Shown: positions 32,892-57,419 of the stretch, piece by piece
Layout of the letters: the number at the start of each line of letters is the position of its first letter
Numbering within the stretch: the stretch's first letter is position 1
IMG/VR virus record: IMGVR_UViG_3300044953_000352
Coordinates: 1-64,000 of that record
DNA from: a virus
DNA length: 64,000 bases
Direction: 5' to 3' (one strand)
The notes under the pieces: generated by a model
Databases searched by the model: none
Told to the model about the DNA's origin: nothing
Seen by the model: only the letters and a program-made list of their open reading frames with translations
Program-made: the position numbers and the translations under genes

Positions 32892-32903
32892 GGAATTATT
32901 GTT

Positions 32904-36601: not shown

Positions 36602-37921
36602 ATGATAGAAAATATTTTGTCAAATATTAAATCATTGATAAATGAAAAAAATAAAAACAAAAAATGGACTCCAAATGTTGATTGGGTGCAATATGCTGGT
36701 CCATTTTTTGATGAAAATGAATATATTGCCGCAATAAATTCTTTATTAGAAGGATGGTTAGTTTTAGGAAAAGATGCTATAAAATTTGAAACTACATTTC
36801 CATCTCAATTCAATAAAAAATACGGAATATTAACAAATAGTGGAAGTAGCTCTAATCTTATAATGATGTCTGTATTAACATCAAAAAGATTATATAATTT
36901 AAAAAAAGGAACCAAAGTTATTACTCCAATAGCTGGATTTCCTACAACTATAAATCCTATTTTTCAAGTTGGATTTACACCAGTATTTGTTGATATTGAT
37001 TTAGATACCCTCAATCTTAATTTGGATCAAGTAGAGGATGCTGCTAAAAAAGGAGCAAAAATTATTACATTTGCACATGTATTAGGAAATCCTCCTAATA
37101 TGGATCGTTTAATGGAAATCATTAAACAATATAATTTGATTCTTTTAGAAGATTGTTGTGACGCTCTTGGATCTACTTATAAAGAAAAACCTCTTGGTAG
37201 TTTTGGAGAATTAACAAGTTGTAGTTTTTATCCTGCACATCATATGACTATGGGTGAAGGAGGATTTGTTGCATGCAATACAGAAATACAAGAAATCATT
37301 GCTCGTAGTTTTCGTGAATGGGGACGTGGATGTTATTGTGTAGGTAAAAAGGCAAATTTATTAAAAAACGGATCTTGTGGAAAAAGATTTTCAAATTGGT
37401 TGCCAGAGTTACCAGATGAAATATTTGATCATAAATACGTATATGATGAAATTGGATATAATCTCAAACCGATTGAATTACAAGCATCTATTGGACTTGA
37501 ACAGATGAAGAAACTTCCTTTGATTCATCAAAAGAGAAAAGAAAATCATAAAAGATTAACTGATATATTTTATAAATATCAAGACTATTTTCATCTTCCA
37601 AAAGCAACGTTATATTCTGATCCAAGTTGGTTTGCATTTGCTTTAACTATAAAAGACAATGCGCCATTCAAGAGAAAAGATATAGTTGAATTTCTAGAAT
37701 CAAATAAAATACAAACTCGTCCATATTTTGCTGGTAATATTATGTTACAACCAGCATATACGGGATTGATTAATAAAAATGAAGTAATAACTAAATATCC
37801 AAATTCAAGAAAGGTAACAACCGACACGTTCTTTTTAGGAACAAGTCCTGTTATTACTATGGAACAATTGGATTATATACAAGAAAAAGTAGATGGGTTT
37901 TTTAAAAATAAAATTATATGA
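36602..37921 (+). CDS. rfbH: NDP-4-keto-6-deoxyglucose 3-dehydrase E1 (RfbH/DdhC)
   Basis: NSGSSSNL, AGFPTT, AHVLGNP, EDCCDALG, SFYPAHHMTMGEGG, WGRGCYC..CG, DHKY. Confidence 0.92.
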   Translation: MIENILSNIKSLINEKNKNKKWTPNVDWVQYAGPFFDENEYIAAINSLLEGWLVLGKDAIKFETTFPSQFNKKYGILTNSGSSSNLIMMSVLTSKRLYNLKKGTKVITPIAGFPTTINPIFQVGFTPVFVDIDLDTLNLNLDQVEDAAKKGAKIITFAHVLGNPPNMDRLMEIIKQYNLILLEDCCDALGSTYKEKPLGSFGELTSCSFYPAHHMTMGEGGFVACNTEIQEIIARSFREWGRGCYCVGKKANLLKNGSCGKRFSNWLPELPDEIFDHKYVYDEIGYNLKPIELQASIGLEQMKKLPLIHQKRKENHKRLTDIFYKYQDYFHLPKATLYSDPSWFAFALTIKDNAPFKRKDIVEFLESNKIQTRPYFAGNIMLQPAYTGLINKNEVITKYPNSRKVTTDTFFLGTSPVITMEQLDYIQEKVDGFFKNKII

Positions 37922-38874
37922 AATTATTATATATTACAGGATGCTTGGGTTTTATCGGATCTCATTTGACTCGTGCGTGTCTTAAAAAAGGATGGTATGT
38001 AAGAGGAGTAGATAAGGCAACATATGCTGCGGATTTAAATTTATTAAACGAATTTAATCAATATCCTACATTTAGTTTTAAGAGGGGAGATATTTGTAAA
38101 TTAGATCGTTTAGTAGATTGTGATTATTTTATTAATGTTGCCGCCGAAACTCATGTTGATAATTCTATTAGAAAAAGTGATGACTTTGTTTATTCTAATA
38201 TTAATGGCGTTTATAATATCCTAGAATTATTGAAAAATTATAATAAACAAGGATATGTAAAGCCAGTTTTATTACATTTTAGTACAGATGAAGTGTATGG
38301 AGATATAGAAGATGGTCAGCATTTTGAAACGGATATATTGAAACCAAGTAATCCTTATTCAGCAACAAAAGCATCAGCGGATCAATTAATTCTTGCATGG
38401 GCACGAACATATGGTATACAATACGTTATTGTTAGACCAACTAATAATTATGGAATAGGACAATATGTTGAAAAATTAATTCCAAAGACTTGTAAATATA
38501 TAAGTTTAAACAGAAAAGTGCCTCTTCACAATAATGGAACTCCAATACGTAATTGGCTTCATGTAGAAGATACTGCTAGAGGAATTATAACAATAATTGA
38601 ATCGGGTGTTAAAAACGAAATATTTAACATAGCAGGTGGATTTGAACAATCAAATATAGTAACTCTTCAGAAAATAGTAAAAGAATATTTTGGTAATTTA
38701 CCTGATGATTACGAAAACAAATATATTGATTTTTCTTTAACAAGAGTTGGTCAAGACATTCGATATGCATTAAATGATGACAAATTGAGAAGTCTAGGAT
38801 GGAAGCCTCAATGTGATTTTGATGTCGAATTAAAAAAGATAGTGAAGTATTATAAGGATAATTTTATATGGTAA
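37918..38874 (+). CDS. rmlB: dTDP-glucose 4,6-dehydratase
   Basis: GCLGFIGS, AAETHVDNSI, STDEVYG, PSNPYSATK, NNYG..QYVEKLIP. Confidence 0.88.
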   Translation: MKLLYITGCLGFIGSHLTRACLKKGWYVRGVDKATYAADLNLLNEFNQYPTFSFKRGDICKLDRLVDCDYFINVAAETHVDNSIRKSDDFVYSNINGVYNILELLKNYNKQGYVKPVLLHFSTDEVYGDIEDGQHFETDILKPSNPYSATKASADQLILAWARTYGIQYVIVRPTNNYGIGQYVEKLIPKTCKYISLNRKVPLHNNGTPIRNWLHVEDTARGIITIIESGVKNEIFNIAGGFEQSNIVTLQKIVKEYFGNLPDDYENKYIDFSLTRVGQDIRYALNDDKLRSLGWKPQCDFDVELKKIVKYYKDNFIW

Positions 38875-40661
38875 AATATGATAATTCAAATTATTTGGCA
38901 GCAGACTTGATAGCAGATTTTCTCGAAGAGAAAGAAATTGATATAGCATTTGGTATTATAGGATCTGCCAACTCATATATTTTTGATTCTATATCTAGAA
39001 AAGGATATACTAAATTAATATGCATGCATCATGAACAAGCAGTTGTAATGGCAGCAGGTGCATATTATAGAACTACTGGAAAATTATGTGCTGCTATTGT
39101 AACCGCTGGAGCAGGTGCTTCTAATGCAATAACAGGAGTATTATGCAATTGGGCAGATTCTATACCTTGTATTGTAATATCAGGACAAGAATCAACTAAA
39201 TATGTCAATGAGCATTCTAACCTTAGAATGTTAGGTACGCAAGGATTTGATGTATCAAAAATGGTATCTGATATTGTAAAATTTAGTACAATTATTAAGA
39301 ATAAATCTGATATTTTACAATCATTAGAACAAGCATATTATATAGCATTAGAAGGAAGACCGGGACCAGTATGGATTGATATTCCAATGGATATGCAATC
39401 TGCAATACTTAATAAAGAAGATTTAAATAAATTTACCGTTCCAAATCAAGTTGTATCTGAATATGATTTACATGAGATAATAAAGTTAATCGAACAATCA
39501 GATAGACCATTAATTTTAGGAGGACACGGAGTACGTCTTTCTAAATGTCAGGATAAATTTAAGAGCTTAATAGAAAAATTAAAAATTCCCACTGTTTTAT
39601 CGTGGTCTGGAATTGATAATTTATCATTTGATAATCCATACAACTTTGGTTGTCCGGGTTTATATGGACAACGATGTGCTAATTTTATAATTCAAAATTG
39701 TGATTTATTAATTGTATTAGGAAGCAGACTTGCGTTACCACAAACTGGTTATAATATAAATAATTTTGCACCAAATGCAAAAATAATAATGGTAAATAAC
39801 GATGAAAATGAATTAAAAAAGCACAATAGATATGATATAAAAATCAAAGATGATTGTAAGAATTTTATAAATAAATTATTAGCTTACGACATAAATTCAT
39901 ATAAATCCAAGTGGTATGATCGTTGTTTGCAGTACAAAAATGAGTTTCCTTTAGTTGAAAAATCTCATTGGGTAGACAATAAAAATCATGATAATTCTTA
40001 TGTATTTATCAATGAACTATCAAAACTTCTAAAAGAAGATCATATTATTGTTATAGGACAAGGTACACCATTACCATGTTCACATCAAAGTCTTGAACTC
40101 AAATCAAAACAAATAGCATTTGCATCAAATGGTTTAGGAGAAATGGGAAATGGATTACCATCTGCTATCGGAGCAGCATTTGGTCGTAATAATAGAGAGG
40201 TTATCTTAATGGATGGTGACGGTAGTATGATGATGAACTTGCAAGAGTTACAAACTATTGTAAGTTATAATCTTCCTGTAAAAATAATAATCTTTAATAA
40301 TGAAGGTTATTTGTTTATAAAACACACACAAAAAATGTTATTTAATGGTCGATATACTGCGGTCAATAAAGAAACCGGCATGAGTTTACCTGAATTTAAA
40401 AAAATAGCATACGCATTTGATATACCTTATTTTAATACAAAACATAATACTGTGGAAGAATTTTTAAGTCATGATGGATATGCTATATTTGAATGTTATA
40501 TGAATCCAGAACAAGAATTCGCTCCAAAAGTAAAAGGTATTTTAACAAAGAATGGTATTTTACCACCACCAATTGAGGATATGTCGCCTTTATTACCGAT
40601 AGAAATTTTAGAAAAAAATATGTTGAAAGTAAATGAAACGTCATATAAAATCAGACAATGA
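38868..40661 (+). CDS. TPP-dependent acetolactate-synthase-like enzyme (YerE-like)
   Basis: HHEQAVVMAA, EGRPGPVWIDIP, MGNGLP, DGDGSMMMNLQEL...NNEGY; sugar-cluster context. Confidence 0.85.
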   Translation: MVKYDNSNYLAADLIADFLEEKEIDIAFGIIGSANSYIFDSISRKGYTKLICMHHEQAVVMAAGAYYRTTGKLCAAIVTAGAGASNAITGVLCNWADSIPCIVISGQESTKYVNEHSNLRMLGTQGFDVSKMVSDIVKFSTIIKNKSDILQSLEQAYYIALEGRPGPVWIDIPMDMQSAILNKEDLNKFTVPNQVVSEYDLHEIIKLIEQSDRPLILGGHGVRLSKCQDKFKSLIEKLKIPTVLSWSGIDNLSFDNPYNFGCPGLYGQRCANFIIQNCDLLIVLGSRLALPQTGYNINNFAPNAKIIMVNNDENELKKHNRYDIKIKDDCKNFINKLLAYDINSYKSKWYDRCLQYKNEFPLVEKSHWVDNKNHDNSYVFINELSKLLKEDHIIVIGQGTPLPCSHQSLELKSKQIAFASNGLGEMGNGLPSAIGAAFGRNNREVILMDGDGSMMMNLQELQTIVSYNLPVKIIIFNNEGYLFIKHTQKMLFNGRYTAVNKETGMSLPEFKKIAYAFDIPYFNTKHNTVEEFLSHDGYAIFECYMNPEQEFAPKVKGILTKNGILPPPIEDMSPLLPIEILEKNMLKVNETSYKIRQ

Positions 40662-41371
40662 ATTTAACTTTACAAACAATATCATCAACAATAATTTCCG
40701 AACTACTCGCAAATTCTCCATTAGATGGGGTGGTTTTGGACATGGAACATGGTAATTTTAATAATGAATCTTTATACGCTTGTATTCAAGTTATTACTTT
40801 ATATAAAAAACAATGTTTTGTTAGAGTCACCGATTTAAATAAAACCTTAGTTCGAATGTGTTTAGACGCAGGAGCAACAGGAATAATATTTTCAACAATC
40901 GAATCATATTCACAAGGTAAAGAAATAGTAGAGTTTTGTACATATCCTTTATTTAAAGGAAAAAGAGGATGTGGGCTTGTTAGAGAAAATCAATGGGGTG
41001 AATACAGTTTAGGTACAAATAAACCCCTAATAATAGGACAAATTGAAACACAAACAGCAGTGGATAATTTAGATTCTATTTGCACATGTGGATTTGATAT
41101 GTTTATTATCGGACCATATGATTTATCTAATAGTCTAAATTGTGTAGGAGACTGGCAAAATTTACTTTATAAAATGTATATAAGTAAAATATATAACACA
41201 ATTGATAATAAAAAAATTGGAATGTTTCTTCCTTCCAAAAGTAATATTACTGAATTTCTATCAAATAAAAAAAATAATATGTTCAGTCCGGCGTTAATTA
41301 TATGGGGAATGGACACTGAGTTAATCAAGTCCGGTATAAATTCCATAGCATATGATATACAAACTAACTGA
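40658..41371 (+). CDS. HpcH/HpaI aldolase family protein
   Basis: LDMEHG, LDAGATGII, GKRGCG, GQIET, IIGPYDLS. Confidence 0.85.
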   Translation: MNLTLQTISSTIISELLANSPLDGVVLDMEHGNFNNESLYACIQVITLYKKQCFVRVTDLNKTLVRMCLDAGATGIIFSTIESYSQGKEIVEFCTYPLFKGKRGCGLVRENQWGEYSLGTNKPLIIGQIETQTAVDNLDSICTCGFDMFIIGPYDLSNSLNCVGDWQNLLYKMYISKIYNTIDNKKIGMFLPSKSNITEFLSNKKNNMFSPALIIWGMDTELIKSGINSIAYDIQTN

Positions 41372-42104
41372 AAAATTAAAGGTTTTAGCAAATAACTATG
41401 GTGTTATAGGTATAAAACAGTCATTTGAAGATGAAGGAATCGAAATAAATGATTTAATCTTAGTAAGAAGATTAACCGATATTTGTAATATTGAATGTTT
41501 TGTAAAAATTGGTGGATGTGAAGCAAAGTCTGATATAAATAATTGTATAAAATATGGAGTTAATAACATCATTGCTCCTATGATAGAATCGTCGTTTGCC
41601 GTATCAAAAGTTACTGATATCACATCTAAATACAATAAACTCATAAATTCTTACATTGTTGTTGAAACCAAAACATCCTTTAATAATTTAGATAGCATTT
41701 TAGAAAAAGGATACAATACATTAAAAGGAATTGTTGTTGGTCGATCAGACTTTTCAAAATCATATTCAATCGATAAAACACAAGTTGATTCTGATTTTAT
41801 ATTTGATAAAGTAAAAACAATTTTACTCAAATCAAAAGAATATAATTATCAAACGACATTAGGTGGAAATATATCTAAACAAAGTGTTGATTTTATTAAA
41901 AAAATGTATTTTCAAAATTTACTTGATAAAATCGAGACTAGAAACATTGTTATTGATTTATCAAAAATTGATATTGAAAATTTAGAAAATGTAATTAAAT
42001 TAGCTATCGAATTTGAAATCGAATTAATAAAATATAAATCTACTTCTTTAACATTGACATTAAAAGAATCAAATGATAGAATAGAAGCATTAGTAAATAG
42101 ATAA
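41352..42104 (+). CDS. aldolase/citrate-lyase-fold protein
   Basis: KQSFEDEG, VKIGGCEA, IAPMIES, VVET, VVGRSDF, TLGG. Confidence 0.65.
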   Translation: MIYKLTEKLKVLANNYGVIGIKQSFEDEGIEINDLILVRRLTDICNIECFVKIGGCEAKSDINNCIKYGVNNIIAPMIESSFAVSKVTDITSKYNKLINSYIVVETKTSFNNLDSILEKGYNTLKGIVVGRSDFSKSYSIDKTQVDSDFIFDKVKTILLKSKEYNYQTTLGGNISKQSVDFIKKMYFQNLLDKIETRNIVIDLSKIDIENLENVIKLAIEFEIELIKYKSTSLTLTLKESNDRIEALVNR

Positions 42105-42109
42105 ATAAA

Positions 42110-43270
42110 ATGAACAAGAGATTTGAACAGTTACAAAACATTGTACACCGAGAAGAATGTTTTAAAACAATATGTGGTGCCGGAAATGAAGATAAAGCAC
42201 ATGTTAAAAAATTATCTTTTGTCTATACATTAGCAGGAACAAAAATATTAGACGTATCAGCTAATGTTGACGTTGTTAAAGCAGCAATGGAAGGTATTGA
42301 TTTAGCGTATGAGTATACCCATAAATTAAATGTTAAGATAGAAGATAGACCTTATATTATGGTCAGTGTAGGAATGCCGGGAGATCCTCACGTTAGAAAA
42401 TCTTTTATAAATGCAGATAAGTGCATTGGATGTACATTATGTATTCCTATTTGCCCAACTGATGCTATTCCTAAAGACTTTGTACAAAATCTAAATGTAT
42501 TTAAAAATTTAGGAGGAGTTTTTGATATCGAAGATCAATCAAAAGAAATTGTTATCAAAGATCTGTGTATAGGATGTGGCAAATGTAGTAGTATTTGCCC
42601 AAAGAATGATATTATCTCATATAGACACAATGCAAGAGAAATACATAAACTTTTACCGAAGTGTATGGAAGCCGGTGCAGAATTATTTGAACTTCATGCT
42701 GCGGTTGGAGAAGATGATATTACTCTTACAGAATGGTCAATAATCAATGAGATTAATTCCAATAATTATAATTCAATGTGTTTGGATAGATTAAATCTAG
42801 GAAACTTAAGATTTGAACATAGAATTAATGAGGCTAGAAAAATTGCTGGTAATCGTTTAATGATTCAAGCAGATGGATATCCAATGAGTGGTGGAGAAGA
42901 TGATTATAACACTACTTTACAAGCAGTTGCATGTGCTGATGTTGTCAATAAAAAGTTTAATATGCGAATTGACAAGAAACGTACAACCGACAAATTAGGA
43001 AAGCCAAAAATATCTTCCAAAAAAGTATATAAAAACATTAATGATGTAGATAATATTCCTATATTAATTTCAGGAGGTACAAATTCTTATAGTAAAGAAT
43101 TGGCAGAAAAGGCAGAAGTAAGAATTAATGGGGTATCTATAGGAACATTTGCGAGAGATTTAATTGAAAAATTTATAGTGCAACCAGATTTCTATGAAAA
43201 CGATGAACTTATTAAATTGGCATATGAAAATGCAAAAAATTTAATACAAATTAGTAATAAAAAAATATGA
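42110..43270 (+). CDS. ldpA: LdpA-like protein with 2x[4Fe-4S] ferredoxin motifs
   Basis: FKTICGAGNED..YTLAG..LDVSA; DPHVRK; CIGCTLCIPICP; CIGCGKCSSICP; ELH; IQADGYPMSGG; ISGGTN. Confidence 0.8.
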   Translation: MNKRFEQLQNIVHREECFKTICGAGNEDKAHVKKLSFVYTLAGTKILDVSANVDVVKAAMEGIDLAYEYTHKLNVKIEDRPYIMVSVGMPGDPHVRKSFINADKCIGCTLCIPICPTDAIPKDFVQNLNVFKNLGGVFDIEDQSKEIVIKDLCIGCGKCSSICPKNDIISYRHNAREIHKLLPKCMEAGAELFELHAAVGEDDITLTEWSIINEINSNNYNSMCLDRLNLGNLRFEHRINEARKIAGNRLMIQADGYPMSGGEDDYNTTLQAVACADVVNKKFNMRIDKKRTTDKLGKPKISSKKVYKNINDVDNIPILISGGTNSYSKELAEKAEVRINGVSIGTFARDLIEKFIVQPDFYENDELIKLAYENAKNLIQISNKKI

Positions 43271-48318: not shown

Positions 48319-48319
48319 T

Positions 48320-49282: not shown

Positions 49283-49292
49283 ATAAACTTAT

Positions 49293-50831: not shown

Positions 50832-50837
50832 TTTTCT

Positions 50838-51443
50838 ATGAAAGAATATACATCAGAAGAATTAATCGCATTTGAAGAAGATATTGCGAATGAATTCAAT
50901 TCATCAAAAATAAAAGCACCTATTCATTTATATAATGGAAATGAACAACAAATGATAAATGTGTTTAAAAATATTCAAGATAATAATTGGATATTTTGTA
51001 CATGGAGATCACATTATCAATGTTTATTAAAAGGTGTTCCTAAAGAACTTGTAAAACAAGATATATTAAATGGTAAATCTATTACTTTATGTTATCCTGA
51101 ATACAACATCTATTCGTCTGCGATTGTAGCAGGTAGTATTCCTATTGCAACAGGTATGGCATTAGATATAAAACGTAAAAATTTATCAAATAGAGTTTGG
51201 TGTTTTGTGGGTGATATGGCATCAGAAACTGGTACATTCTTTGAAAATTGGAAATATTCAGTAAATCATGATCTTCCTATAACATACGTTATAGAAAACA
51301 ATGGTAAGTCAGTGTGTACTGATACACTAAAAACGTGGAACTGTAATAATTTATATTTTGCAAATGAAACACGTAATATAATATATTACGAATATCAAAC
51401 TAAGTATCCACATGCGGGAGCAGGAAAAAGAATTCAATTTTAA
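50838..51443 (+). CDS. short TPP-dependent E1 alpha-like subunit
   Basis: PIHLYNGNE, WRSHY, SAIVAG, FVGDMASETG...IENN. Confidence 0.85.
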   Translation: MKEYTSEELIAFEEDIANEFNSSKIKAPIHLYNGNEQQMINVFKNIQDNNWIFCTWRSHYQCLLKGVPKELVKQDILNGKSITLCYPEYNIYSSAIVAGSIPIATGMALDIKRKNLSNRVWCFVGDMASETGTFFENWKYSVNHDLPITYVIENNGKSVCTDTLKTWNCNNLYFANETRNIIYYEYQTKYPHAGAGKRIQF

Positions 51444-51445
51444 TT

Positions 51446-51982
51446 ATGAAATACTTTGACGAACTTAAAAAATCGATGGATTGGTTGGCAGGAAAAGACG
51501 ATACCTTATTTTTAGGTCAAGCAGTAGAATATGCAGGAACTGCTATGACAAATACATTAAAAGATGTAGATAAAAAGAAGTTGTTAGAAATGCCAGTTAA
51601 TGAAGACATGCAAATGGGAATTTCTATTGGAATGGCTCTAAACAAAAGTGTTCCGATTTCTATTTTTCCAAGATGGAACTTTTTACTTCTTGCCGCAAAT
51701 CAAATTGTAAATCATTTGGACAAAGCGAAAATAATGTCATCTGGAGGATATAAACCAACGGTTATCATTAGAACATCTATAGGTTCACAACGCCCACTAC
51801 ATCCACAACATCAACATATATCAGATTTTACATCTGCTTTCAGAGCAATGTGTGATACAGTTGATATAATTCGTCTTGATGAACCACATCAAATTTTTGA
51901 ATCATTTCAATATGCATATGAAAGAAATGATGGAAGATCAACCATTTTAGTTGAATGGGGAGATTATTATAGTGAAAAATAA
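51446..51982 (+). CDS. E1 beta/transketolase pyrimidine-binding subunit lacking the C-terminal domain
   Basis: FLGQAV, EMPVNEDMQMG, NQIVNHLDK, HPQHQH. Confidence 0.8.
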   Translation: MKYFDELKKSMDWLAGKDDTLFLGQAVEYAGTAMTNTLKDVDKKKLLEMPVNEDMQMGISIGMALNKSVPISIFPRWNFLLLAANQIVNHLDKAKIMSSGGYKPTVIIRTSIGSQRPLHPQHQHISDFTSAFRAMCDTVDIIRLDEPHQIFESFQYAYERNDGRSTILVEWGDYYSEK

Positions 51983-51984
51983 GT

Positions 51985-52947
51985 ATGACAATTGTAAAAT
52001 CACCATTTCGAATATCCTTGTTTGGAGGAAGTACTGATTATAAAAAATTTTATCAGCAACATGGTTCTTTTTTAATAGGTACGACTATTAATAAATATTG
52101 TTATTTATCTATGAGATATCGTCCGTCGATACTCTCAAAACAATATTTGTGTACATATTCAAAGTATGAGTTGGTAAACAATGTCAACGAAATTCAAAAT
52201 CCACTAATAAGAGAAACTTTTAATTATTTTAATATAAATAAACCAGTTGAGTTTTTTTCTTTTTCTGATATACCGGCTCGTACTGGTTTAGGAGGATCTT
52301 CTTCATATTGTATAGGAATGGCATATTTGATTTGTAAATTAAATAATCTATCTTTATCAAACAAAGAAATTATTAAAACAGCTATTCACATTGAACGAAA
52401 TATATTAAAAGAAAGTGGAGGTATACAAGATCAAATTTGGCCATTTGCAAAAGGTCTAAATAGCATTGAAATTCAAAAAGATGGTGAATTTTATACAAAA
52501 CCTTTACCTGTTACAGAAGAATTTACAAATGAATTTGAAAAATCATTCACTTTAATATACACAGACGAACAAAGAACAACGGACAATATTGCTAAGTCAC
52601 ATGAAAGTGATATTGAAAATAAATTACAGATTTTAAAATTTGCAAAAGATGCATATAATTTATTTTTAAAAGAAGATATAAAGGGTATAGGAAATTTAGT
52701 TTATGAAAGTTGGTTATATAAAGATAGAATATCTCCTTTGATATCTAATTCAAAAATTAATAATATAATTAATGATGTAATGCAAATGGGTGCATATGGT
52801 ACAAAGTTATTAGGAAGTGGAGGATGTGGATTTGTATTGGTAATATCTGATCCTATAATAAAAAATAAAATAGAACAGAAATATAACGGATATGTATTGA
52901 ACGTTAATTTTGAAAAAACAGGTACGTCTGACATATTTAAAAGCTAA
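51985..52947 (+). CDS. GHMP sugar kinase (HddA-like)
   Basis: SPFRISLFGGSTD, DIPARTGLGGSS, GIQDQ, KLLGSGGCGF. Confidence 0.85.
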   Translation: MTIVKSPFRISLFGGSTDYKKFYQQHGSFLIGTTINKYCYLSMRYRPSILSKQYLCTYSKYELVNNVNEIQNPLIRETFNYFNINKPVEFFSFSDIPARTGLGGSSSYCIGMAYLICKLNNLSLSNKEIIKTAIHIERNILKESGGIQDQIWPFAKGLNSIEIQKDGEFYTKPLPVTEEFTNEFEKSFTLIYTDEQRTTDNIAKSHESDIENKLQILKFAKDAYNLFLKEDIKGIGNLVYESWLYKDRISPLISNSKINNIINDVMQMGAYGTKLLGSGGCGFVLVISDPIIKNKIEQKYNGYVLNVNFEKTGTSDIFKS

Positions 52948-52949
52948 GT

Positions 52950-53372
52950 ATGAAAATTGGAATTGTATCAGGTTATTTTAATCCACTACATGCAGGTCAC
53001 GTTGAATACATCAACGCTGCAAAAAAAGAATGTGATAAATTGATCGTTATTATCAATAGCGACTATCAAAGAAAATTAAAAGGAAGTAAAGAATTTATGG
53101 ACGAATCTCATAGATCTTTTATTGTAAATAATTTAAAATCTGTTGATGAAACTTTTATATCTATAGATCAAGATAAAACACAATGTAGTACATTAAGATA
53201 TTTTAGAGATTTGTATCCAAATGAAGAATTAAAGTTCATGAATAGTGGAGATAGAAAAGGTGAAAATTTAGTCACCGCTGAAAGTAATGTTTGCAAAGAA
53301 TTAAAAATACTTGAAATTATTCTAGATTTGCCTAAAATATACTCATCGAGTAAATTATTGAAAAAACTATAA
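52950..53372 (+). CDS. cytidylyltransferase-family (TagD/RfaE-like) nucleotidyltransferase
   Basis: SGYFNPLHAGH, INSD...KG, NSGDR, SSS. Confidence 0.85.
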   Translation: MKIGIVSGYFNPLHAGHVEYINAAKKECDKLIVIINSDYQRKLKGSKEFMDESHRSFIVNNLKSVDETFISIDQDKTQCSTLRYFRDLYPNEELKFMNSGDRKGENLVTAESNVCKELKILEIILDLPKIYSSSKLLKKL

Positions 53373-53377
53373 ATAAT

Positions 53378-54553
53378 ATGAATCACTTTTATTTACCTCT
53401 AATGGAGGACAACATCGATAAAGAAGACATTAAAAATTTAATAAATTTTCTTTCAAGTCCAAATATACCAAAATTAACAAATGGTCCTAAAGTTGTTGAA
53501 TTTGAAAATGCATGGGGCAATTGGTTAGGAACAAAATATAACTTGATGGTCAATAGCGGAGCGTCTGCTAATGAATTAACTATTCTTGCATTAAATGAAA
53601 TGTATGAAGATGGAGATATTATAATACCTCCGTTGACATGGATTTCAGATGTATCTTCTGTTATTTTTAGTAAATTTAATCCAGTATTTTGTGATATAAA
53701 TTTAAAAAATTTATCGTTTGATTTGAACCGTCTTAAAAAATTAATCACACCAAAAACACGAGCAATTTTTCTAACCCATGTATTAGGTATTAATGGATTG
53801 ACAGATGAACTACTTGATCTTTGTAAACGAAATAACATTCACTTGATAGAAGATGTATGTGAATCACACGGAACAACTTTCAAAGGTAAAAAGGTAGGAT
53901 CATATGGATTTGTAAGTAATTTTAGTTTTTATTTTGCCCACCATATGTCTACAATTGAAGGTGGTATGATTTGTACTGATGATGAAAGATTTTATCAAAT
54001 TTGTAGAGCATTGAGATCGCATGGAATGATTAGAGAAATGACTAATGAATCCATGAAAAATGAAATCATTAATCAACATCCTGATCTTAATAAAGATTTT
54101 ATATTTTTGCGTCCGTCTCATAATTTTAGAAGTACAGAAATCAATGCAGTGATTGGTCTTTCTCAATTACCAAAATTAGATAGTAATAATAAAAAGAGAA
54201 TTGATAATTACAATTACTTCATGAGTAAATTAGATTCTTCAAAGTATATTACAGATCTAAATTTAGAGGGACAGTGCAATTATGCGTTTACCGTTATTTT
54301 GAAAGAACCTTCGATGGTTACTAGACTAAATATAGAATTACGCTTAAAAGAAGCAAAAATTGAATTTAGAAGAGGAATGTCAGGTGGTGGAAACCAACTT
54401 CGTCAACCATATATCAAAAAATACTTTAAGATTGATTATAATGAATTTCCAAACGTAGAACATGTACACGATTTTAGTTGGTATATAGGAAATTATCCTA
54501 GCTTACAATTTGAGAAAATTGATACTCTAATTAACGTATTAAATAAAATATAA
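53378..54553 (+). CDS. DegT/DnrJ-family PLP enzyme, ColD-like 3-dehydratase
   Basis: NSGASAN, THVLG, EDVCESHG, SFYFAHHMSTIEGG (His at the Schiff-base Lys position), RSHG. Confidence 0.8.
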   Translation: MNHFYLPLMEDNIDKEDIKNLINFLSSPNIPKLTNGPKVVEFENAWGNWLGTKYNLMVNSGASANELTILALNEMYEDGDIIIPPLTWISDVSSVIFSKFNPVFCDINLKNLSFDLNRLKKLITPKTRAIFLTHVLGINGLTDELLDLCKRNNIHLIEDVCESHGTTFKGKKVGSYGFVSNFSFYFAHHMSTIEGGMICTDDERFYQICRALRSHGMIREMTNESMKNEIINQHPDLNKDFIFLRPSHNFRSTEINAVIGLSQLPKLDSNNKKRIDNYNYFMSKLDSSKYITDLNLEGQCNYAFTVILKEPSMVTRLNIELRLKEAKIEFRRGMSGGGNQLRQPYIKKYFKIDYNEFPNVEHVHDFSWYIGNYPSLQFEKIDTLINVLNKI

Positions 54554-54555
54554 TT

Positions 54556-56223
54556 ATGGCTAAAAAAATAGTACCTTCTTTAGGAGAAGTAGAATTAACA
54601 CAAGATTTCTCAAGTGATGCATTTGAATTTCTTCATCAGAACTTTAAAAAACTAATACCAAAAAATACTGTGGTATTAGATATTGGAGCGCATATAGGAA
54701 TATTTTCTGTTATTTTTGGTTCTTGTGCAAGTAAAGTTATATCATTTGAACCGAATCCTAATATTTTCAATAAATTATCAGAGAACGCATCAAAAAATAA
54801 ACAATTAAATATTATTCCATATCCATATGCATGTACGTCTGAAAATAAAAAATACACATTTAATTACAGTGATTATAATGTATACAAAGATGGTACAAAT
54901 GGTGGATTTTTAAGTAATTTACAAAGAACAGACTTTTTACAAATACATCCTTCTCAAGTAGAAGTTGATGGTGTTAATTTAGTTGATTTTTTAACTAATA
55001 ATCATAAATCAGACATCGATAATATTAAATTTATAAAAATTGATACTGAAGGATATGATAAAGAAGTGATAAAAACTCTTTATCCTATTATTAATAAAAA
55101 TAGACCTCTTTTAATGACAGAAGCCTTTAAATATTTAACCGAAGCTGAATTAGAAGACTATTATAATACTATTAATAATTTAAATTATTCTATATATGAT
55201 ATTTCTCCATTAGACAATATTAATGATTGTGCTGGACCATTAGATACAAATGAATTTAAATATTTTACTGTAAAAATATGTGATAATGGAAATTTTTTGT
55301 GCGTTCCAAATGAAAAAGTTAAACAATATAACTTGCCCGAAATAGTTCGTAATAAAACTGCGGTTGTAGTATTTGGAAGAAACGATGGATATAAAGAACC
55401 TGAACGTTTCTATGTTCATATAAAAACAATGTTAGATACATTCGATGAAGTTATTTACGTTGATTGGAATTCAGACAAACAAAGTTTCTTATATGAAATA
55501 AAAGACAAACTTCCAAAAACTAATAGACTAAAACATATTGTTATTCCTCCCACCGCAGCTAATCAATTAGTCAATTTTGATTCTAAAGCTCAGGTATGTA
55601 ATTCAGTGTTGTCATTTAATATTGGTATTCGTAGAATTGACGCAGAATACATAGTACTAGCAACAACTGATATTATACCTCCTTCAAAAGAAACTCTACA
55701 ACAGTTCATAAACAAAACTAATAAATACTCATTTTATACACTTAGTAGAAGAGATATAGAATATAAAGACGTTATTGACAATATTAATAACTTAGAAGCG
55801 TATAGAAAACATTTGGATTTAACTGTTCCTCCACGTTATTTTCCGGCTAAAGTAACTCCTAATGATAATTATAGTCTATTTAATTGTTGCGGAGATTTTC
55901 AATTTGCAACAAAAAATATATGGCTAAAAATTAGAGGATATGAAGAAGAAATGTTATATGCATGTTTTTGTGATACAAATGTACAAAAAAAGGCAGTTCT
56001 ATATGGATTTCAATTAGTACCTGTTTATGATGTTCCTTTATATCACATGAGTCATACAGGCATGGCTAACGATGGAACATCTCCTAGTAAACAGTACTAT
56101 AATGATGCTATGAAGTGGGTTGAATATTTTGATAAATATCAATTACACGGTCATATTATGTATTCTAGAAATAATGAAACTTGGGGATTTTCAGACATAG
56201 AAATTGAGCATGAAATTATATGA
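54556..56223 (+). CDS. FkbM methyltransferase fused to a GT-A-like domain
   Basis: LDIGAHIG, FEPNP, IKIDTEGYD; then GRNDGY, VDWNS, NIGIRR, TTDII, CCGDFQ, GYEE. Confidence 0.8.
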   Translation: MAKKIVPSLGEVELTQDFSSDAFEFLHQNFKKLIPKNTVVLDIGAHIGIFSVIFGSCASKVISFEPNPNIFNKLSENASKNKQLNIIPYPYACTSENKKYTFNYSDYNVYKDGTNGGFLSNLQRTDFLQIHPSQVEVDGVNLVDFLTNNHKSDIDNIKFIKIDTEGYDKEVIKTLYPIINKNRPLLMTEAFKYLTEAELEDYYNTINNLNYSIYDISPLDNINDCAGPLDTNEFKYFTVKICDNGNFLCVPNEKVKQYNLPEIVRNKTAVVVFGRNDGYKEPERFYVHIKTMLDTFDEVIYVDWNSDKQSFLYEIKDKLPKTNRLKHIVIPPTAANQLVNFDSKAQVCNSVLSFNIGIRRIDAEYIVLATTDIIPPSKETLQQFINKTNKYSFYTLSRRDIEYKDVIDNINNLEAYRKHLDLTVPPRYFPAKVTPNDNYSLFNCCGDFQFATKNIWLKIRGYEEEMLYACFCDTNVQKKAVLYGFQLVPVYDVPLYHMSHTGMANDGTSPSKQYYNDAMKWVEYFDKYQLHGHIMYSRNNETWGFSDIEIEHEII

Positions 56224-57419
56224 AAAATGTTATTATTGTTGGTGGAGGAATAGTAGGATTAGCTACTGCATATAAACTATCATGTAAATATAATGATATA
56301 CAAATTATTGTACTTGAAAAAGAAAATGAGGTAGGTTTGCACCAAACTACTCATAACAGTGGTGTATTACACTGTGGTTTATATTATAAACCCGGTTCAC
56401 TAAAAGCAAAATTAGCTGTTGACGGTATTAAGCAAATGACATCGTTTTGCAAACAATATAATATTCCACATGAAATATGCGGAAAATTAGTTGTAGCAAC
56501 AAATGAAATAGAACATTCAAGACTTAAAGATTTGTATAAAAGAGGCATTGAAAATGGTTTAGAAGGATTAAAATATTTAGATAATAAAGAAGAAATACAA
56601 AAAATAGAACCATATGTAACAAATGCAATTGCCGCTATACATGTTCCACAAGAAGGAATAGTAGACTATAAAGCAGTAATAAATAAATTAAAATTATTAA
56701 TTTTAAAAAAAGGACATTTAATTCTTTGTAATAGTAAAGTTAATTATATATGCAATAAAACCAATACCGTTTCTGTTAAATCTCCACTACAAGAAGAAAC
56801 TTATGCATATGATTATTTGATAAATTGCACAGGGTTATATAGTGATGTCATTTCCAAATTAACAACTACAGTTTCATCAAAAATAGTTCCTTTTCGAGGA
56901 GAATATTATAAACTTAAAAAAGAATCTGAACACCTCGTTAATAATTTAATATATCCTGTTCCAGATCCATCTTTTCCATTTTTAGGTGTTCATTTTACAA
57001 GATTAATACATGGAGGAATAGAAGCAGGGCCAAATGCTGTATTAGCGTTTTCTAGAGAAGGATATAAACTTTATAATATAAACTTACTTGAAATGCTTGA
57101 TTATTTGTGTTTTCGAGGATTTTGGAAATTTATATGGAAACATAAATCTATGTGTTGGAAAGAATTCTGGCAATCTTTAAGCAAAAAACGTCTTTGTAAA
57201 TCGTTACAAAAATTGATACCTTCAATAACAGAAAATGATTTGATGCCGGGAGGATCTGGAGTCAGAGCACAAGCTATGAGTATAGATGGTAATTTAATTC
57301 AAGATTTTGAAATTCATATTGTAAATAACAATATATGTAACGTTTTAAACGCTCCTAGTCCCGCTGCAACTGCATCACTATCTATCGCAGATATTATATT
57401 AAATAAGATAAATTTATGA
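56220..57419 (+). CDS. lhgO: L-2-hydroxyglutarate oxidase-like FAD oxidoreductase
   Basis: GGGIVGLA, HQTTHNSGVLHCGLYY.PGSLKA, PFRGEYY, YPVPDP.FPFLGVH, GVRAQA, NAPSPAATAS. Confidence 0.9.
   Translation: MKNVIIVGGGIVGLATAYKLSCKYNDIQIIVLEKENEVGLHQTTHNSGVLHCGLYYKPGSLKAKLAVDGIKQMTSFCKQYNIPHEICGKLVVATNEIEHSRLKDLYKRGIENGLEGLKYLDNKEEIQKIEPYVTNAIAAIHVPQEGIVDYKAVINKLKLLILKKGHLILCNSKVNYICNKTNTVSVKSPLQEETYAYDYLINCTGLYSDVISKLTTTVSSKIVPFRGEYYKLKKESEHLVNNLIYPVPDPSFPFLGVHFTRLIHGGIEAGPNAVLAFSREGYKLYNINLLEMLDYLCFRGFWKFIWKHKSMCWKEFWQSLSKKRLCKSLQKLIPSITENDLMPGGSGVRAQAMSIDGNLIQDFEIHIVNNNICNVLNAPSPAATASLSIADIILNKINL

What the first reader, a model, noticed from the sequence alone, without database searches (positions are those of the whole stretch)
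36602..57419. Phage operon for a probable branched-chain or higher-carbon 3,6-dideoxy sugar
Seen, tightly coupled: RfbH, a 4,6-dehydratase, a YerE-like TPP enzyme, two aldolase-fold proteins, LdpA-like Fe-S protein, HAD phosphatase, two SDRs, RmlC, B12 radical SAM, TPP E1 pair, kinase, nucleotidyltransferase, ColD-like enzyme, FkbM-GT and LhgO. Known: E1 plus YerE and a reductase make the C4-branched sugar yersiniose. Inferred: the extra C-C-forming enzymes build a longer branch (caryophyllose/erwiniose-like) or a new sugar, transferred by the interspersed GTs. This is the best candidate for an undescribed system in the window.
Basis: partly seen in the sequence, partly recalled or inferred. 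Interest (0 to 1): 0.82.

Follow-up and report, generated by a model that had tools for sequence, protein, structure and literature searches.

The report
Two phage branched deoxy-sugar modules
A large freshwater phage carries two separable gene modules that most likely each build a rare branched, deoxygenated sugar, using several enzymes whose chemistry has never been tested, among them a relative of the cyanobacterial clock protein LdpA.

Summary
All 17 named enzyme types are present in one co-directional run whose genes overlap or lie up to 10 bp apart.

It is not one pathway. It is two modules that occur separately in other phages.

- **Module A (36602-44549):** RfbH/E1, a 4,6-dehydratase, an ALS-like ThDP enzyme, two HpcH aldolases, an LdpA-like Fe-S barrel, a HAD phosphatase and an SDR. 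This fits the published erwiniose/caryophyllose scheme for acyl-branched 3,6-dideoxyhexoses.
- **LdpA-like protein:** In bacteria it travels with aldolases, HAD and CMP-transferases, and is sometimes fused to an aldolase. It rarely sits near RfbH. It therefore more likely helps make the keto-acid donor than replaces the E3 reductase.
- **Module B (46335-57419):** a Cj1427-like C4-dehydrogenase, a ColD-like 3-dehydratase, an RmlC-like epimerase, a cut-down E1 alpha/beta ThDP pair, a B12 radical SAM enzyme, a kinase, a nucleotidyltransferase, an FkbM-GT fusion and LhgO. It is found in at least 142 IMG/VR loci.
- **LhgO:** Cj1427 makes L-2-hydroxyglutarate, so an L-2-hydroxyglutarate oxidase makes sense in this module.

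The products and the glycosylation target are unknown. This scan has noted both modules before on other DNA.

Verdict: a new variant of a known kind, interest 0.66.

The parts
36602..37921 (+). Module A: RfbH/DdhC-type (E1) PMP-dependent NDP-4-keto-6-deoxyhexose 3-dehydrase
   Evidence: NF011936 scores 472.8 bits against a cut-off of 423. It scores 338 bits to PDB 3BCX (E1). The YPAHH active-site His and the CC...CyC...C cysteines are conserved.
37918..38874 (+). Module A: NDP-hexose 4,6-dehydratase (RmlB-like)
   Evidence: Pfam Epimerase and GDP_Man_Dehyd. TIGR01181 scores 304.6 bits, below its cut-off of 365. The CDP-glucose dehydratase model scores only 67.6 bits.
38868..40661 (+). Module A: ALS/YerE-like three-domain ThDP enzyme, proposed C4 acyl-branch carboligase
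   Evidence: TPP_enzyme_N, M and C domains. It falls below every ALS equivalog cut-off (351 against 738). It overlaps the dehydratase gene. Its type co-varies with aldolase 1 in relatives.
40658..41371 (+). Module A: HpcH/HpaI class II pyruvate aldolase (aldolase 1)
   Evidence: PF03328 scores 53 bits against a cut-off of 25. The FVRV, GQIET and IGPYDL motifs are present. It occurs only in relatives whose ThDP enzyme is 63-78% identical to the window's.
41352..42104 (+). Module A: divergent HpcH-family protein (aldolase 2), always next to the LdpA-like gene
   Evidence: PF03328 scores 27.2 bits against a cut-off of 25. Glu and Asp motifs are kept, and Lys replaces the usual Arg. Found in 8 of 9 phage relatives and in Pelagibacteraceae loci.
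42110..43270 (+). Module A: LdpA-like (beta/alpha)8 barrel with an inserted 2x[4Fe-4S] ferredoxin domain
   Evidence: Pfam LdpA_Fe-S-bd and LdpA_C. NF045992 scores 141 bits against a cut-off of 450. AlphaFold2 pLDDT is 91. Best structural neighbours are KDPG aldolase and phosphate-binding barrels, Z 15-18. Fusions to an HMGL-like aldolase exist.
43267..43647 (+). Module A: small HAD phosphatase (BT0820-like)
   Evidence: NF046079 scores 95.7 bits, below its cut-off. The DFDGT motif is present. It lies directly after the LdpA-like gene in all 9 phage relatives.
43644..44549 (+). Module A: SDR, candidate branch or C4 ketoreductase (YerF-like role)
   Evidence: Pfam Epimerase, 115 bits. An SDR follows the HAD gene in the L002 and L004 variants too.
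44546..45466 (+). Unknown phage protein, possibly a glycosyltransferase
   Evidence: No Pfam or NCBIfam hit. ESM Atlas neighbours are viral hypothetical clusters, with only a weak GT2 lead.
45463..46338 (+). Putative glycosyltransferase (weak GT10 C-terminal match)
   Evidence: PF00852 scores 18.8 bits, below its cut-off of 23.9. Present in 18 of 80 module B loci.
46335..46877 (+). Module B: RmlC-like C3/C5 epimerase
   Evidence: PF00908 scores 128 bits. The best PDB hits are the C. jejuni GDP-4-keto-heptose 3- and 3,5-epimerases, at 88-92 bits. Canonical RmlC scores about 80 bits.
46878..47373 (+). Pseudogene of a PNP_UDP_1 (nucleosidase-like) gene
   Evidence: At least two frameshifts and a stop, relative to the intact 168-aa gene at L091:5373-5879. 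That intact gene matches PF01048.
47374..48318 (+). Module B: Cj1427-like NDP-sugar C4-dehydrogenase
   Evidence: 318 bits (E 4e-94) to PDB 6VO6/6VO8. The next best SDR scores 84 bits. Present in 68 of 80 module B loci.
48320..49282 (+). GT-A (GT2-like) glycosyltransferase candidate
   Evidence: No Pfam family. The ESM Atlas structure search gives TM 0.62-0.67 to GT2 clusters.
49293..50831 (+). Module B: class B (B12-binding) radical SAM enzyme, probable C-methyltransferase
   Evidence: PF04055 plus PF02310. The best NCBIfam hit is HpnJ at 118 bits, far below its cut-off. Present in 56 of 80 loci.
50838..51443 (+). Module B: cut-down E1 alpha-like ThDP subunit (201 aa)
   Evidence: PF00676 scores 60.7 bits. 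The GDM-x27-NN ThDP motif is present. Present in 79 of 80 loci.
51446..51982 (+). Module B: cut-down E1 beta-like subunit (178 aa, no C-terminal domain)
   Evidence: PF02779 scores 33.8 bits. The PVNEDMQMG Glu motif is present. The family holds 7,735 clusters and at least 142 IMG/VR loci.
51985..52947 (+). Module B: GHMP sugar kinase (HddA-like)
   Evidence: GHMP_kinases_N and C domains. NF049969 scores 133 bits against a cut-off of 600. Present in 23 of 80 loci.
52950..53372 (+). Module B: HxGH nucleotidyltransferase (RfaE domain II-like)
   Evidence: PF01467 scores 46 bits. TIGR02199 scores 56 bits, below its cut-off. It matches PF01467 in the complete relative G001, where only one other place (a 315-aa ORF) does, and where no PF00483 nucleotidyltransferase is found.
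53378..54553 (+). Module B: ColD-like PLP-dependent C3-dehydratase
   Evidence: 183 bits to ColD (2GMS). FAHH sits at the position of the active-site His, with no Lys. Present in 65 of 80 loci.
54556..56223 (+). FkbM methyltransferase fused to a GT-A glycosyltransferase
   Evidence: PF05050 covers residues 42-211. The C-terminal 289 aa exist as a separate gene in other phages. Their model matches SpsA, K4CP and WrtF at Foldseek E 3e-8.
56220..57419 (+). L-2-hydroxyglutarate oxidase (LhgO)
   Evidence: NF008726 scores 489.8 bits against a cut-off of 299. All 8 viral LhgO loci that have upstream sequence lie at the 3' end of module B.
57416..58032 (+). Two small conserved ORFs (109 and 96 aa) that end the operon
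   Evidence: No significant family. Homologues follow LhgO, or the GT, in relatives.

Best explanation
The region joins two independent sugar-nucleotide modules. Each takes a sugar nucleotide to a 3-deoxy-4-keto intermediate and then adds a carbon branch at C4 with a thiamine enzyme. Glycosyltransferases are interspersed to attach the products.

**Module A**
1. [quoted passage not shown] The gene functions are shown. The identity of the nucleotide is unknown.
2. The HpcH aldolases, the LdpA-like Fe-S barrel and the HAD phosphatase make and dephosphorylate a hydroxylated 2-oxo acid (inferred).
3. The ALS-like ThDP enzyme decarboxylates that acid and adds it to C4. The SDR then reduces the branch, as in erwiniose and caryophyllose (inferred by analogy).

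**Module B**
1. The kinase and nucleotidyltransferase activate a heptose or hexose.
2. The Cj1427-like enzyme oxidises C4, reducing 2-oxoglutarate to L-2-hydroxyglutarate.
3. LhgO regenerates 2-oxoglutarate.
4. The ColD-like enzyme removes the 3-OH, and the RmlC-like enzyme epimerises.
5. The cut-down E1 alpha/beta pair adds a pyruvate-derived C2 branch, as proposed for AviB1/AviB2.
6. The B12 radical SAM enzyme methylates.

All the chemical steps of module B are inferred from homology.
For: **Gene identities:**

**Modularity**
- Nine phage loci share the module A core without module B, except L003.
- In 80 loci found with E1 beta, the counts were: E1 alpha 79, Cj1427-like 68, ColD-like 65, radical SAM 56, RmlC-like 47, RfbH 10 and LdpA-like 2.

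**Module A**
- It fits the published scheme (PMC9306805).
- The ThDP enzyme is 63-78% identical wherever aldolase 1 is present (L002, L003, L009, L127). It is 29-37% identical where aldolase 1 is absent.

**LdpA-like protein and aldolases**
- An HpcH-like gene lies within 8 kb in 23 of 80 genome loci. RfbH at 35% identity or more is nearby in only 4 of 80.
- With better queries on the same 80 loci, about 31 have a CTP_transf_3 gene somewhere on the fetched locus, 31 have an L018-type HAD (5 loci have the window's BT0820-type HAD), and 22 have an HMGL-like gene.
- Nineteen protein clusters are fusions of an HMGL-like aldolase, an MptE-like domain and an LdpA-like domain.
- The model is a barrel with invariant polar residues and an SGGTN phosphate-type motif.

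**LhgO**
- Cj1427 reduces 2-oxoglutarate to L-2-hydroxyglutarate (PMC10680097).
- Viral LhgO genes sit at the end of module B.

**Other support**
- Cj1427 plus a C3-dehydratase yields GDP-3-deoxy-4-keto-heptose in vitro.
- AviB1/AviB2 is the precedent for the E1 pair (PMC4753412).
- In the cultured cyanophage S-SM2, a related fused E1 lies with a kinase, a nucleotidyltransferase and a phosphoheptose isomerase.
Against: - No enzyme here has been assayed, and no product or acceptor is known.
- Module A has no PF00483 nucleotidyltransferase and no E3 reductase, even in the complete relative. The source of its substrate and of electrons for E1 is therefore open.
- I could not compare the ThDP enzyme with YerE, ErwE or MMAR_2332, nor the E1 pair with AviB1/AviB2, because no reference sequences were reachable.
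- The E1 subunits are far shorter than any characterised E1.
- GmhA and an HddC-type transferase are absent, and the kinase scores far below the HddA cut-off. A heptose substrate is therefore only a lead.
- Structural matches of the LdpA-like barrel are generic TIM barrels.
- LhgO accompanies only a minority of module B loci (7 of 80).
Confidence: 0.55

Rival explanations
1. One linear pathway. All C-C-forming enzymes (the ALS-like ThDP enzyme, two aldolases, the E1 pair and the radical SAM enzyme) act in turn on a single sugar to give one higher-carbon 3,6-dideoxy sugar.
For: All the genes are co-directional and tightly packed. The closest relative, L003/G001, keeps both halves together. The complete relative has no PF00483 nucleotidyltransferase, and its only other PF01467 match is a 315-aa ORF, so the module B nucleotidyltransferase may feed both halves.
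Against: The two halves occur apart in most relatives. Each half has its own 3-deoxygenation enzyme (RfbH and ColD-like). Each also has its own way of making the 4-keto group and its own ThDP enzyme.
Confidence: 0.12
2. The LdpA-like protein is only an electron-transfer partner. It replaces the missing E3 (DdhD) reductase for RfbH and perhaps reduces the radical SAM enzyme. The aldolases and HAD act without it.
For: It has two ferredoxin-type 4Fe-4S motifs. No PF00175-type reductase is found in the window record or in the complete 296-kb relative. In phages it always travels with RfbH. L018, L073 and L075 have an RfbH-like gene nearby.
Against: In 80 bacterial and archaeal loci, RfbH at 35% identity or more is nearby in only 4. 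Aldolase, HAD and CMP-transferase genes are nearby in 22-31. Pelagibacteraceae and Planctomycetales cassettes have no RfbH or ThDP enzyme on the fetched loci. Fusions to an HMGL-like aldolase exist. The barrel has many invariant polar residues.
Confidence: 0.15
3. The cut-down E1 pair works before activation. It acts as a transketolase- or DXS-like enzyme that extends or decarboxylates a sugar phosphate or keto acid. The kinase and nucleotidyltransferase then activate the product.
For: The E1 pair lies next to the kinase and nucleotidyltransferase in the window. There are weak DXP-synthase and transketolase matches. In S-SM2 the fused homologue sits with a phosphoheptose isomerase and a kinase.
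Against: The kinase and nucleotidyltransferase accompany the pair in only 20-23 of 80 loci. The Cj1427-like and ColD-like genes, which make a 4-keto acceptor, accompany it in 65-68.
Confidence: 0.12
4. An unlinked mosaic of ordinary metabolic genes (acetolactate synthase, pyruvate dehydrogenase pieces, common deoxysugar genes) with no special product.
For: The best NCBIfam names are acetolactate synthase and PDH E1. Neither promoter-like nor terminator-like sites were more frequent than in shuffled sequence, so the scan adds no evidence on transcription units.
Against: All these hits fall far below the equivalog cut-offs. No ALS small subunit or E2/E3 is present. Synteny is conserved over dozens of phage loci and one 48% GC bacterial contig.
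Confidence: 0.03

Closest known systems
Acyl-branched 3,6-dideoxyhexose pathways: yersiniose (YerE/YerF), erwiniose (ErwE/F/I/J), caryophyllose (MMAR_2331/2332), gastriose (MyGE/MygI); Steitz et al. 2022, PMC9306805
   Same: An E1-type 3-dehydrase, a 4,6-dehydratase, an ALS-like ThDP enzyme, a pyruvate aldolase (HpcH/citrate-lyase type, as in MMAR_2331), an SDR reductase and nearby glycosyltransferases.
   Different: Carried by a phage. No DdhA-type nucleotidyltransferase and no E3. There is a second, divergent HpcH protein, plus an LdpA-like Fe-S barrel and a HAD phosphatase, none of which is part of the published scheme. The dehydratase looks dTDP-type rather than CDP-type.
Campylobacter jejuni GDP-heptose modification enzymes (Cj1427 C4-dehydrogenase, C3-dehydratase, C3/C5 epimerases); PMC10680097
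   Same: The SDR scores 318 bits to Cj1427 (6VO6). A ColD-type PLP 3-dehydratase and a cupin epimerase closest to the C. jejuni heptose epimerases are present. The combination of Cj1427 and the C3-dehydratase gave GDP-3-deoxy-4-keto-heptose in vitro.
   Different: No GmhA, GmhB or HddC, and no evident C4-reductase. Instead there are a ThDP E1 pair, a B12 radical SAM enzyme and an LhgO. The combination of C4-dehydrogenase and 3-dehydratase was made in vitro in that paper; here it is a conserved natural gene set.
AviB1/AviB2 and Pau11/Pau12, PDH-E1-like pairs proposed to add the C4 acetyl branch in avilamycin and paulomycin sugars (PMC4753412)
   Same: A two-subunit E1-type ThDP enzyme, with no E2 or E3, inside a deoxysugar cluster next to enzymes that make a 4-keto NDP-sugar.
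   Different: The subunits are only 201 and 178 aa and lack the beta C-terminal domain. The pair is phage-borne and belongs to a very large aquatic family (7,735 clusters). Sequence relatedness to AviB1/B2 was not tested here.
LdpA, the iron-sulfur clock-input protein of Synechococcus elongatus (NF045992; PF25160, PF12617)
   Same: The same domain layout, the two CxxCxxCxxxCP motifs, and many invariant residues shared with cyanobacterial homologues.
   Different: It scores far below the equivalog cut-off (141 against 450). No kai context. It lies in sugar operons with aldolase and phosphatase genes. LdpA itself has no known enzymatic role (PMC13421787).
Colitose pathway (Gmd, ColD, ColC)
   Same: A ColD-like His-type PLP dehydratase at 53378, and a Gmd-like gene elsewhere in the window (980-2116, minus strand).
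   Different: No ColC-type bifunctional epimerase/reductase was identified. The dehydratase is embedded with a C4-dehydrogenase, an E1 pair and a radical SAM enzyme.

Membership tests
Acyl-branched 3,6-dideoxyhexose pathway (yersiniose/erwiniose/caryophyllose type) | E1 (DdhC/RfbH) 3-dehydrase with an active-site His and [2Fe-2S] cysteines | tested here: met
   NF011936 scores 472.8 bits, above the cut-off of 423. YPAHH and the Cys motif align to PDB 3BCX.
Acyl-branched 3,6-dideoxyhexose pathway (yersiniose/erwiniose/caryophyllose type) | NDP-hexose 4,6-dehydratase | tested here: met
   Pfam PF16363 and PF01370. TIGR01181 scores 304.6 bits, below its equivalog cut-off. The match is at family level, and the nucleotide specificity is unknown.
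Acyl-branched 3,6-dideoxyhexose pathway (yersiniose/erwiniose/caryophyllose type) | Glucose-1-phosphate nucleotidyltransferase (DdhA) and E3 reductase (DdhD) | tested here: not met
   PF00483 and PF00175 give no match in the 79-kb record or in five related records, including the complete 296-kb G001. The host could supply both functions.
Acyl-branched 3,6-dideoxyhexose pathway (yersiniose/erwiniose/caryophyllose type) | YerE/ErwE-type ThDP carboligase acting on the 4-keto sugar | tested here: inconclusive
   It has the three-domain ALS-like architecture and falls below the ALS cut-offs. Its context and its co-variation with aldolase 1 fit. No YerE or ErwE sequence was available for comparison.
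Acyl-branched 3,6-dideoxyhexose pathway (yersiniose/erwiniose/caryophyllose type) | Pyruvate aldolase that supplies a gamma-hydroxy-2-oxo acid donor | tested here: met
   40658 scores 53 bits on PF03328 and has the catalytic Arg, Glu and Asp motifs. Its activity and substrate are untested.
Acyl-branched 3,6-dideoxyhexose pathway (yersiniose/erwiniose/caryophyllose type) | A C4 acyl-branched sugar as the product | not testable with these tools
   This needs NDP-sugar LC-MS/NMR or glycan analysis.
Cj1427-type NDP-heptose C4-dehydrogenase route | Close homology to Cj1427 | tested here: met
   318 bits (E 4e-94) over residues 2-304 to PDB 6VO6. The next SDR scores 84 bits.
Cj1427-type NDP-heptose C4-dehydrogenase route | [quoted passage not shown] | tested here: not met
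   No SIS_2 match in G000 or G001. The kinase scores 133 bits against a cut-off of 600 for HddA. The nucleotidyltransferase is of the HxGH type, not the HddC type.
Cj1427-type NDP-heptose C4-dehydrogenase route | Ping-pong recycling of bound NADH with 2-oxoglutarate, giving L-2-hydroxyglutarate | not testable with these tools
   Indirect support only: an LhgO equivalog lies in the same operon, and viral LhgO genes lie at the end of module B.
ColD-type PLP-dependent 3-dehydratase | His replaces the PLP-binding Lys, and overall similarity to ColD | tested here: met
   183 bits to PDB 2GMS. FAHH aligns with ColD SHH.
AviB1/AviB2-type E1 pair for C2 branching | ThDP-binding motif in alpha and the activating Glu motif in beta | tested here: met
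   GDM-x27-NN in 50838 and PVNEDMQMG in 51446.
AviB1/AviB2-type E1 pair for C2 branching | Full-length E1 alpha and beta subunits | tested here: not met
   The subunits are 201 and 178 aa. The alpha chain's best matched stretch spans profile positions 6-179 of 300 in PF00676, and the only Pfam family matched by the beta chain is Transket_pyr.
LdpA (circadian clock protein, NF045992) | Equivalog-level score | tested here: not met
   141.4 bits against a cut-off of 450. The Pfam LdpA_Fe-S-bd and LdpA_C domains are both over their cut-offs.
L-2-hydroxyglutarate oxidase (LhgO, NF008726) | Equivalog-level score over the full length | tested here: met
   489.8 bits against a cut-off of 299, covering residues 3-394.

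The most novel reading that the evidence does not exclude
The LdpA family is not primarily a redox sensor. It is an iron-sulfur (beta/alpha)8 enzyme that works with pyruvate aldolases and a phosphatase to make a so far undescribed hydroxylated 2-oxo (ulosonic-type) acid.

Bacteria would activate this acid with a CMP-transferase. These phages would instead feed it to a ThDP carboligase, giving a long-branched dideoxy sugar of unknown structure.

Alongside it, a second phage module would be the first natural route to a C4-branched 3-deoxy-heptose (or hexose), with a built-in L-2-hydroxyglutarate recycling step.
Probability: 0.4. Interest if true: 0.85.

Novelty: new variant of a known kind. Interest (0 to 1): 0.66.

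Why it matters
- Branched deoxysugars are rare antigenic determinants, and only a few biosynthetic routes have been worked out.
- This operon, with its hundreds of phage relatives, suggests that large aquatic phages commonly make such sugars themselves, presumably to decorate virions or the infected cell.
- It offers three testable enzymology leads:
  - a catalytic role for the LdpA family, whose only known member is a clock-input protein with no known mechanism;
  - a minimal two-subunit thiamine enzyme family with thousands of members;
  - a metabolic reason for an L-2-hydroxyglutarate oxidase in a sugar operon.
- The cultured cyanophages S-SM2 and P-TIM68 carry distant versions of the E1 enzyme, so experiments are feasible.

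Tried and rejected
I used genome contigs and IMG/VR loci instead.
- **Megablast** of the region against cultured phages found nothing. tblastn with the ThDP enzyme found only ilvB-like genes at about 30% identity. The LdpA-like protein has no match in cultured phages.
- **PDB sequence searches** gave nothing useful for aldolase 2. For the LdpA-like profile they matched only the ferredoxin part.
- **Fold searches with the LdpA-like model** gave no specific answer. Foldseek gave weak class II FBP aldolase and pyruvate kinase matches (TM about 0.4). The wide VIA search gave many phosphate-binding TIM barrels at Z 15-18 with no clear winner. No specific enzyme family can be assigned.
- **The promoter and terminator scan** found no more sites than in shuffled sequence. 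It does not define transcription units.
- **tRNA scan:** no tRNAs in the window.
- **A single-sequence LhgO scan** found only one locus. An alignment-based scan was needed.
- **The cut-down E1 beta** was found in 1 of 301 sampled cyanobacterial genomes, and only weakly. I rejected the idea that it is a common host gene there. It does occur, in synteny, on a 48% GC contig of a Planctomycetales MAG.
- **Phosphonate pathway:** I considered PEP mutase, Ppd and Fom3-like enzymes. I dropped the idea because no PEP mutase or Ppd-type enzyme was found and the context is sugar-nucleotide chemistry.
- **DNA hypermodification:** I considered this because of the nearby dUTPase-like gene. I found no supporting evidence.

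Full report
**Setting.** The window is the first 64 kb of a 79-kb IMG/VR virus record that CheckV rates about 20% complete. GC content is about 28%. It encodes a T4-type family B DNA polymerase and a clamp loader. The nearest cultured relative by polymerase is Microcystis phage Mel-JY01, at 45% identity. A close relative is a 296-kb record rated 100% complete (L003/G001). The finding lies in a plus-strand run of genes from about 30946 to 58032.

**The observation.**
- Neighbouring genes overlap by 4-20 bp or are 1-10 bp apart.
- The single 496-bp gap (46878-47373) is a decayed copy of a 168-aa PNP_UDP_1 nucleosidase-like gene that is intact in relatives.
- 36602 passes the RfbH equivalog cut-off. 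It keeps the E1 active-site His (YPAHH) and the cysteines aligned with the E1 iron-sulfur motif.
- 53378 is ColD-like, with His rather than Lys at the cofactor position.
- 54556 is a fusion of an FkbM methyltransferase and a GT-A fold glycosyltransferase.
- 48320 is probably a GT-A enzyme.
- 56220 passes the L-2-hydroxyglutarate oxidase equivalog cut-off.

**Two modules, not one pathway.**
- Nine IMG/VR loci found with the LdpA-like protein share the following genes, but only L003 also has the genes from 47374 onward:
  - RfbH
  - the 4,6-dehydratase
  - a ThDP enzyme
  - aldolase 2
  - the LdpA-like protein
  - HAD
  - usually an SDR
- The short E1 beta retrieves at least 142 IMG/VR loci. In the 80 kept, the counts are:
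  - E1 alpha: 79
  - Cj1427-like SDR: 68
  - ColD-like enzyme: 65
  - B12 radical SAM enzyme: 56
  - RmlC-like gene: 47
  - kinase: 23
  - nucleotidyltransferase: 20
  - RfbH: 10
  - LdpA-like gene: 2
- The window therefore joins a module A (36602-44549) and a much more widespread module B (46335-57419). Glycosyltransferase candidates lie between and within them.

**Module A.**
- *Published scheme.* In the scheme for acyl-branched sugars, DdhA-D make CDP-4-keto-3,6-dideoxyglucose. A pyruvate aldolase makes a gamma-hydroxy-2-oxo acid. A YerE-like ThDP enzyme adds it at C4, and a reductase finishes the branch. MMAR_2331 of the caryophyllose cluster is an aldolase/citrate-lyase family protein (PMC9306805).
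- *What module A has.* It has the E1, the dehydratase, an ALS-like ThDP enzyme that falls below all acetolactate synthase cut-offs, an HpcH aldolase with the catalytic motifs, and an SDR.
- *Co-variation.* In relatives the ThDP enzyme is 63-78% identical wherever aldolase 1 is present. It is 29-37% identical where aldolase 1 is absent. One variant has RfbH and a ThDP enzyme with no aldolase at all. This fits a donor-specific pairing of aldolase and carboligase.
- *What is missing.* There is no PF00483 nucleotidyltransferase and no E3 reductase, even in the complete relative. The host must supply these, or other genes cover for them.

**The LdpA-like protein.** I tested this against its wider distribution.
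- The protein has 1,655 homologous clusters.
- A scan of one genome per species gave 80 loci in Pelagibacteraceae, Prochlorococcus, Planctomycetota, Omnitrophota, Melainabacteria and others.
- An HpcH-like gene lies within 8 kb in 23 of the 80 loci. RfbH at 35% identity or more does so in only 4.
- With better queries on the same 80 loci:
  - about 31 have a CTP_transf_3 (KdsB/NeuA-type) gene somewhere on the fetched locus;
  - 31 have an L018-type HAD, and 5 have the window's BT0820-type HAD;
  - 22 have an HMGL-like aldolase;
  - these genes often lie in the fixed order HMGL-like, LdpA-like, HAD, HpcH, CMP-transferase.
- Nineteen protein clusters are fusions of an HMGL-like aldolase, an MptE-like domain and a full-length LdpA-like domain.
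- The AlphaFold2 model (pLDDT 91) is a (beta/alpha)8 barrel with the ferredoxin domain inserted. Invariant residues include K19, D48, D92, H94, K97, E194, H196, R227, D255 and an SGGTN motif.
- Structural neighbours are KDPG aldolase, hexulose-phosphate synthase and other phosphate-binding barrels. None stands out.
- My reading is that this is an enzyme that works with pyruvate aldolases and a phosphatase to make a 2-oxo acid. Bacteria would activate the acid with CMP, and the phage would use it as the ThDP donor. This is inference, and the reaction itself is unknown.
- A second role as electron donor to E1 is not excluded.
- A 2026 review assigns LdpA no enzymatic function (PMC13421787).

**Module B.**
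- *C4-dehydrogenase.* The SDR at 47374 scores 318 bits to PDB 6VO6/6VO8. The next SDR scores 84 bits. The entry title is generic, and I identify it as Cj1427 from my own knowledge. Cj1427 is the C. jejuni GDP-heptose C4-dehydrogenase. Its tightly bound NADH is re-oxidised by 2-oxoglutarate, giving L-2-hydroxyglutarate (PMC10680097).
- *3-dehydratase.* That paper also shows that Cj1427 plus a PLP- and glutamate-dependent C3-dehydratase makes GDP-3-deoxy-4-keto-heptose in vitro. Here the same pair of enzyme types is a conserved natural gene set.
- *Epimerase.* The RmlC-like protein is closest to the C. jejuni GDP-4-keto-heptose epimerases, by a small margin.
- *LhgO.* The oxidase would return L-2-hydroxyglutarate to 2-oxoglutarate. 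All eight viral LhgO loci that have upstream sequence lie at the 3' end of module B. This link is inferred.
- *E1 pair.* The 201-aa and 178-aa E1 subunits keep the ThDP and Glu motifs. They have no E2 or E3 partner. They belong to a family of 7,735 clusters. The only precedent is AviB1/AviB2 and Pau11/12, which are proposed to add a pyruvate-derived acetyl branch to a 4-keto sugar (PMC4753412).
- *No C4-reductase.* No conserved C4-reductase accompanies the module. This fits use of the ketone as the acceptor.
- *Radical SAM.* The B12 radical SAM enzyme is most simply a C-methyltransferase. The neighbouring nucleosidase-like gene in relatives would fit removal of 5'-deoxyadenosine or SAH (inference).
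- *Substrate.* It may be a heptose. The kinase is HddA-like, and cultured cyanophage S-SM2 has a fused E1 homologue beside a kinase, a nucleotidyltransferase and a phosphoheptose isomerase. However, GmhA and HddC are absent here.
- *Not phage-only.* A 48% GC contig of a Planctomycetales MAG carries the module core in synteny. The E1 beta was found in only 1 of 301 sampled cyanobacterial genomes.

**Comparison and novelty.**
- Both halves are variants of known logic: make a 3-deoxy-4-keto NDP-sugar, then branch it with ThDP chemistry.
- The new elements are:
  - the LdpA-like, aldolase and HAD set;
  - the minimal E1 pair;
  - the natural pairing of a Cj1427-type dehydrogenase with a ColD-type dehydratase;
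  - the LhgO link;
  - carriage by phages.
- I found no paper that describes these phage modules.
- Earlier notes of this scan on other genomes reached similar readings for the E1 pair and the LdpA-like protein. I re-derived the modularity, tested the fusion claim, and added the Cj1427/LhgO and CMP-transferase associations.

**Limits.** Nothing here shows the product structures, the nucleotide carriers, the acceptor (virion, host envelope or other) or the timing of expression.

Noticed in passing
window 46878-47373: A decayed gene (at least two frameshifts and a stop) for a 168-aa PNP_UDP_1 nucleosidase-like protein. It is intact in relatives (L091:5373-5879). It may serve to remove 5'-deoxyadenosine or SAH for the radical SAM enzyme.
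   Followed up: partly
window 980-2116 (minus strand): A GDP-mannose 4,6-dehydratase-like gene (TIGR01472, 347 bits, below the cut-off of 415), far from the operon. It could feed the ColD-like enzyme with a GDP-4-keto-6-deoxy sugar.
   Followed up: no
L023, L024, L026, L027, L029, L046 (bacterial genome loci): A recurrent bacterial cassette in the order HMGL-like (+MptE-like), LdpA-like, HAD, HpcH aldolase, CTP_transf_3. It looks like a pathway for an unknown CMP-activated keto-acid sugar.
   Followed up: partly
P0121-P0139: Proteins of about 885 aa that fuse an N-terminal HMGL-like aldolase, an MptE-like domain and a C-terminal full-length LdpA-like domain. The LdpA-like part is 50-53% identical to the window protein.
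   Followed up: yes
L021 (Flavobacteriales MAG), L022 (Omnitrophota MAG), L011 (Chloroflexota MAG): These MAG contigs share phage-like synteny with the window. L021 has homologues of 30946, 32346, 32904, 34611 and 35923. L022 has RfbH and the dehydratase at 64% identity. They may be phage contigs binned into MAGs.
   Followed up: no
L185 (Synechococcus phage S-SM2, SSM2_191-211): This cultured cyanophage has a fused 402-aa E1 alpha+beta-like protein in a sugar cluster. The cluster also holds a carbohydrate kinase, nucleotidyltransferases, phosphoheptose isomerases and a class II aldolase. P-TIM68 has a similar gene.
   Followed up: partly
L191 (G009 contig 11, Planctomycetales MAG, 48% GC): The module B core lies in synteny on a contig of quite different base composition. 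It comprises an SDR, E1 alpha and beta (43-49% identity), a Cj1427-like gene (46%), a B12 radical SAM gene (43%), a GHMP kinase and a DegT gene.
   Followed up: partly
window 32346-33926 and 33958-34614: The GT4-type transferase upstream appears as two adjacent ORFs. Only the second has the GT1 C-terminal domain. The next gene is a 218-aa protein in which only the C-terminal part matches dUTPase.
   Followed up: no
window 57416-58032: Two small ORFs (109 and 96 aa) with no family. They consistently follow LhgO, or the terminal glycosyltransferase, in related phages.
   Followed up: no
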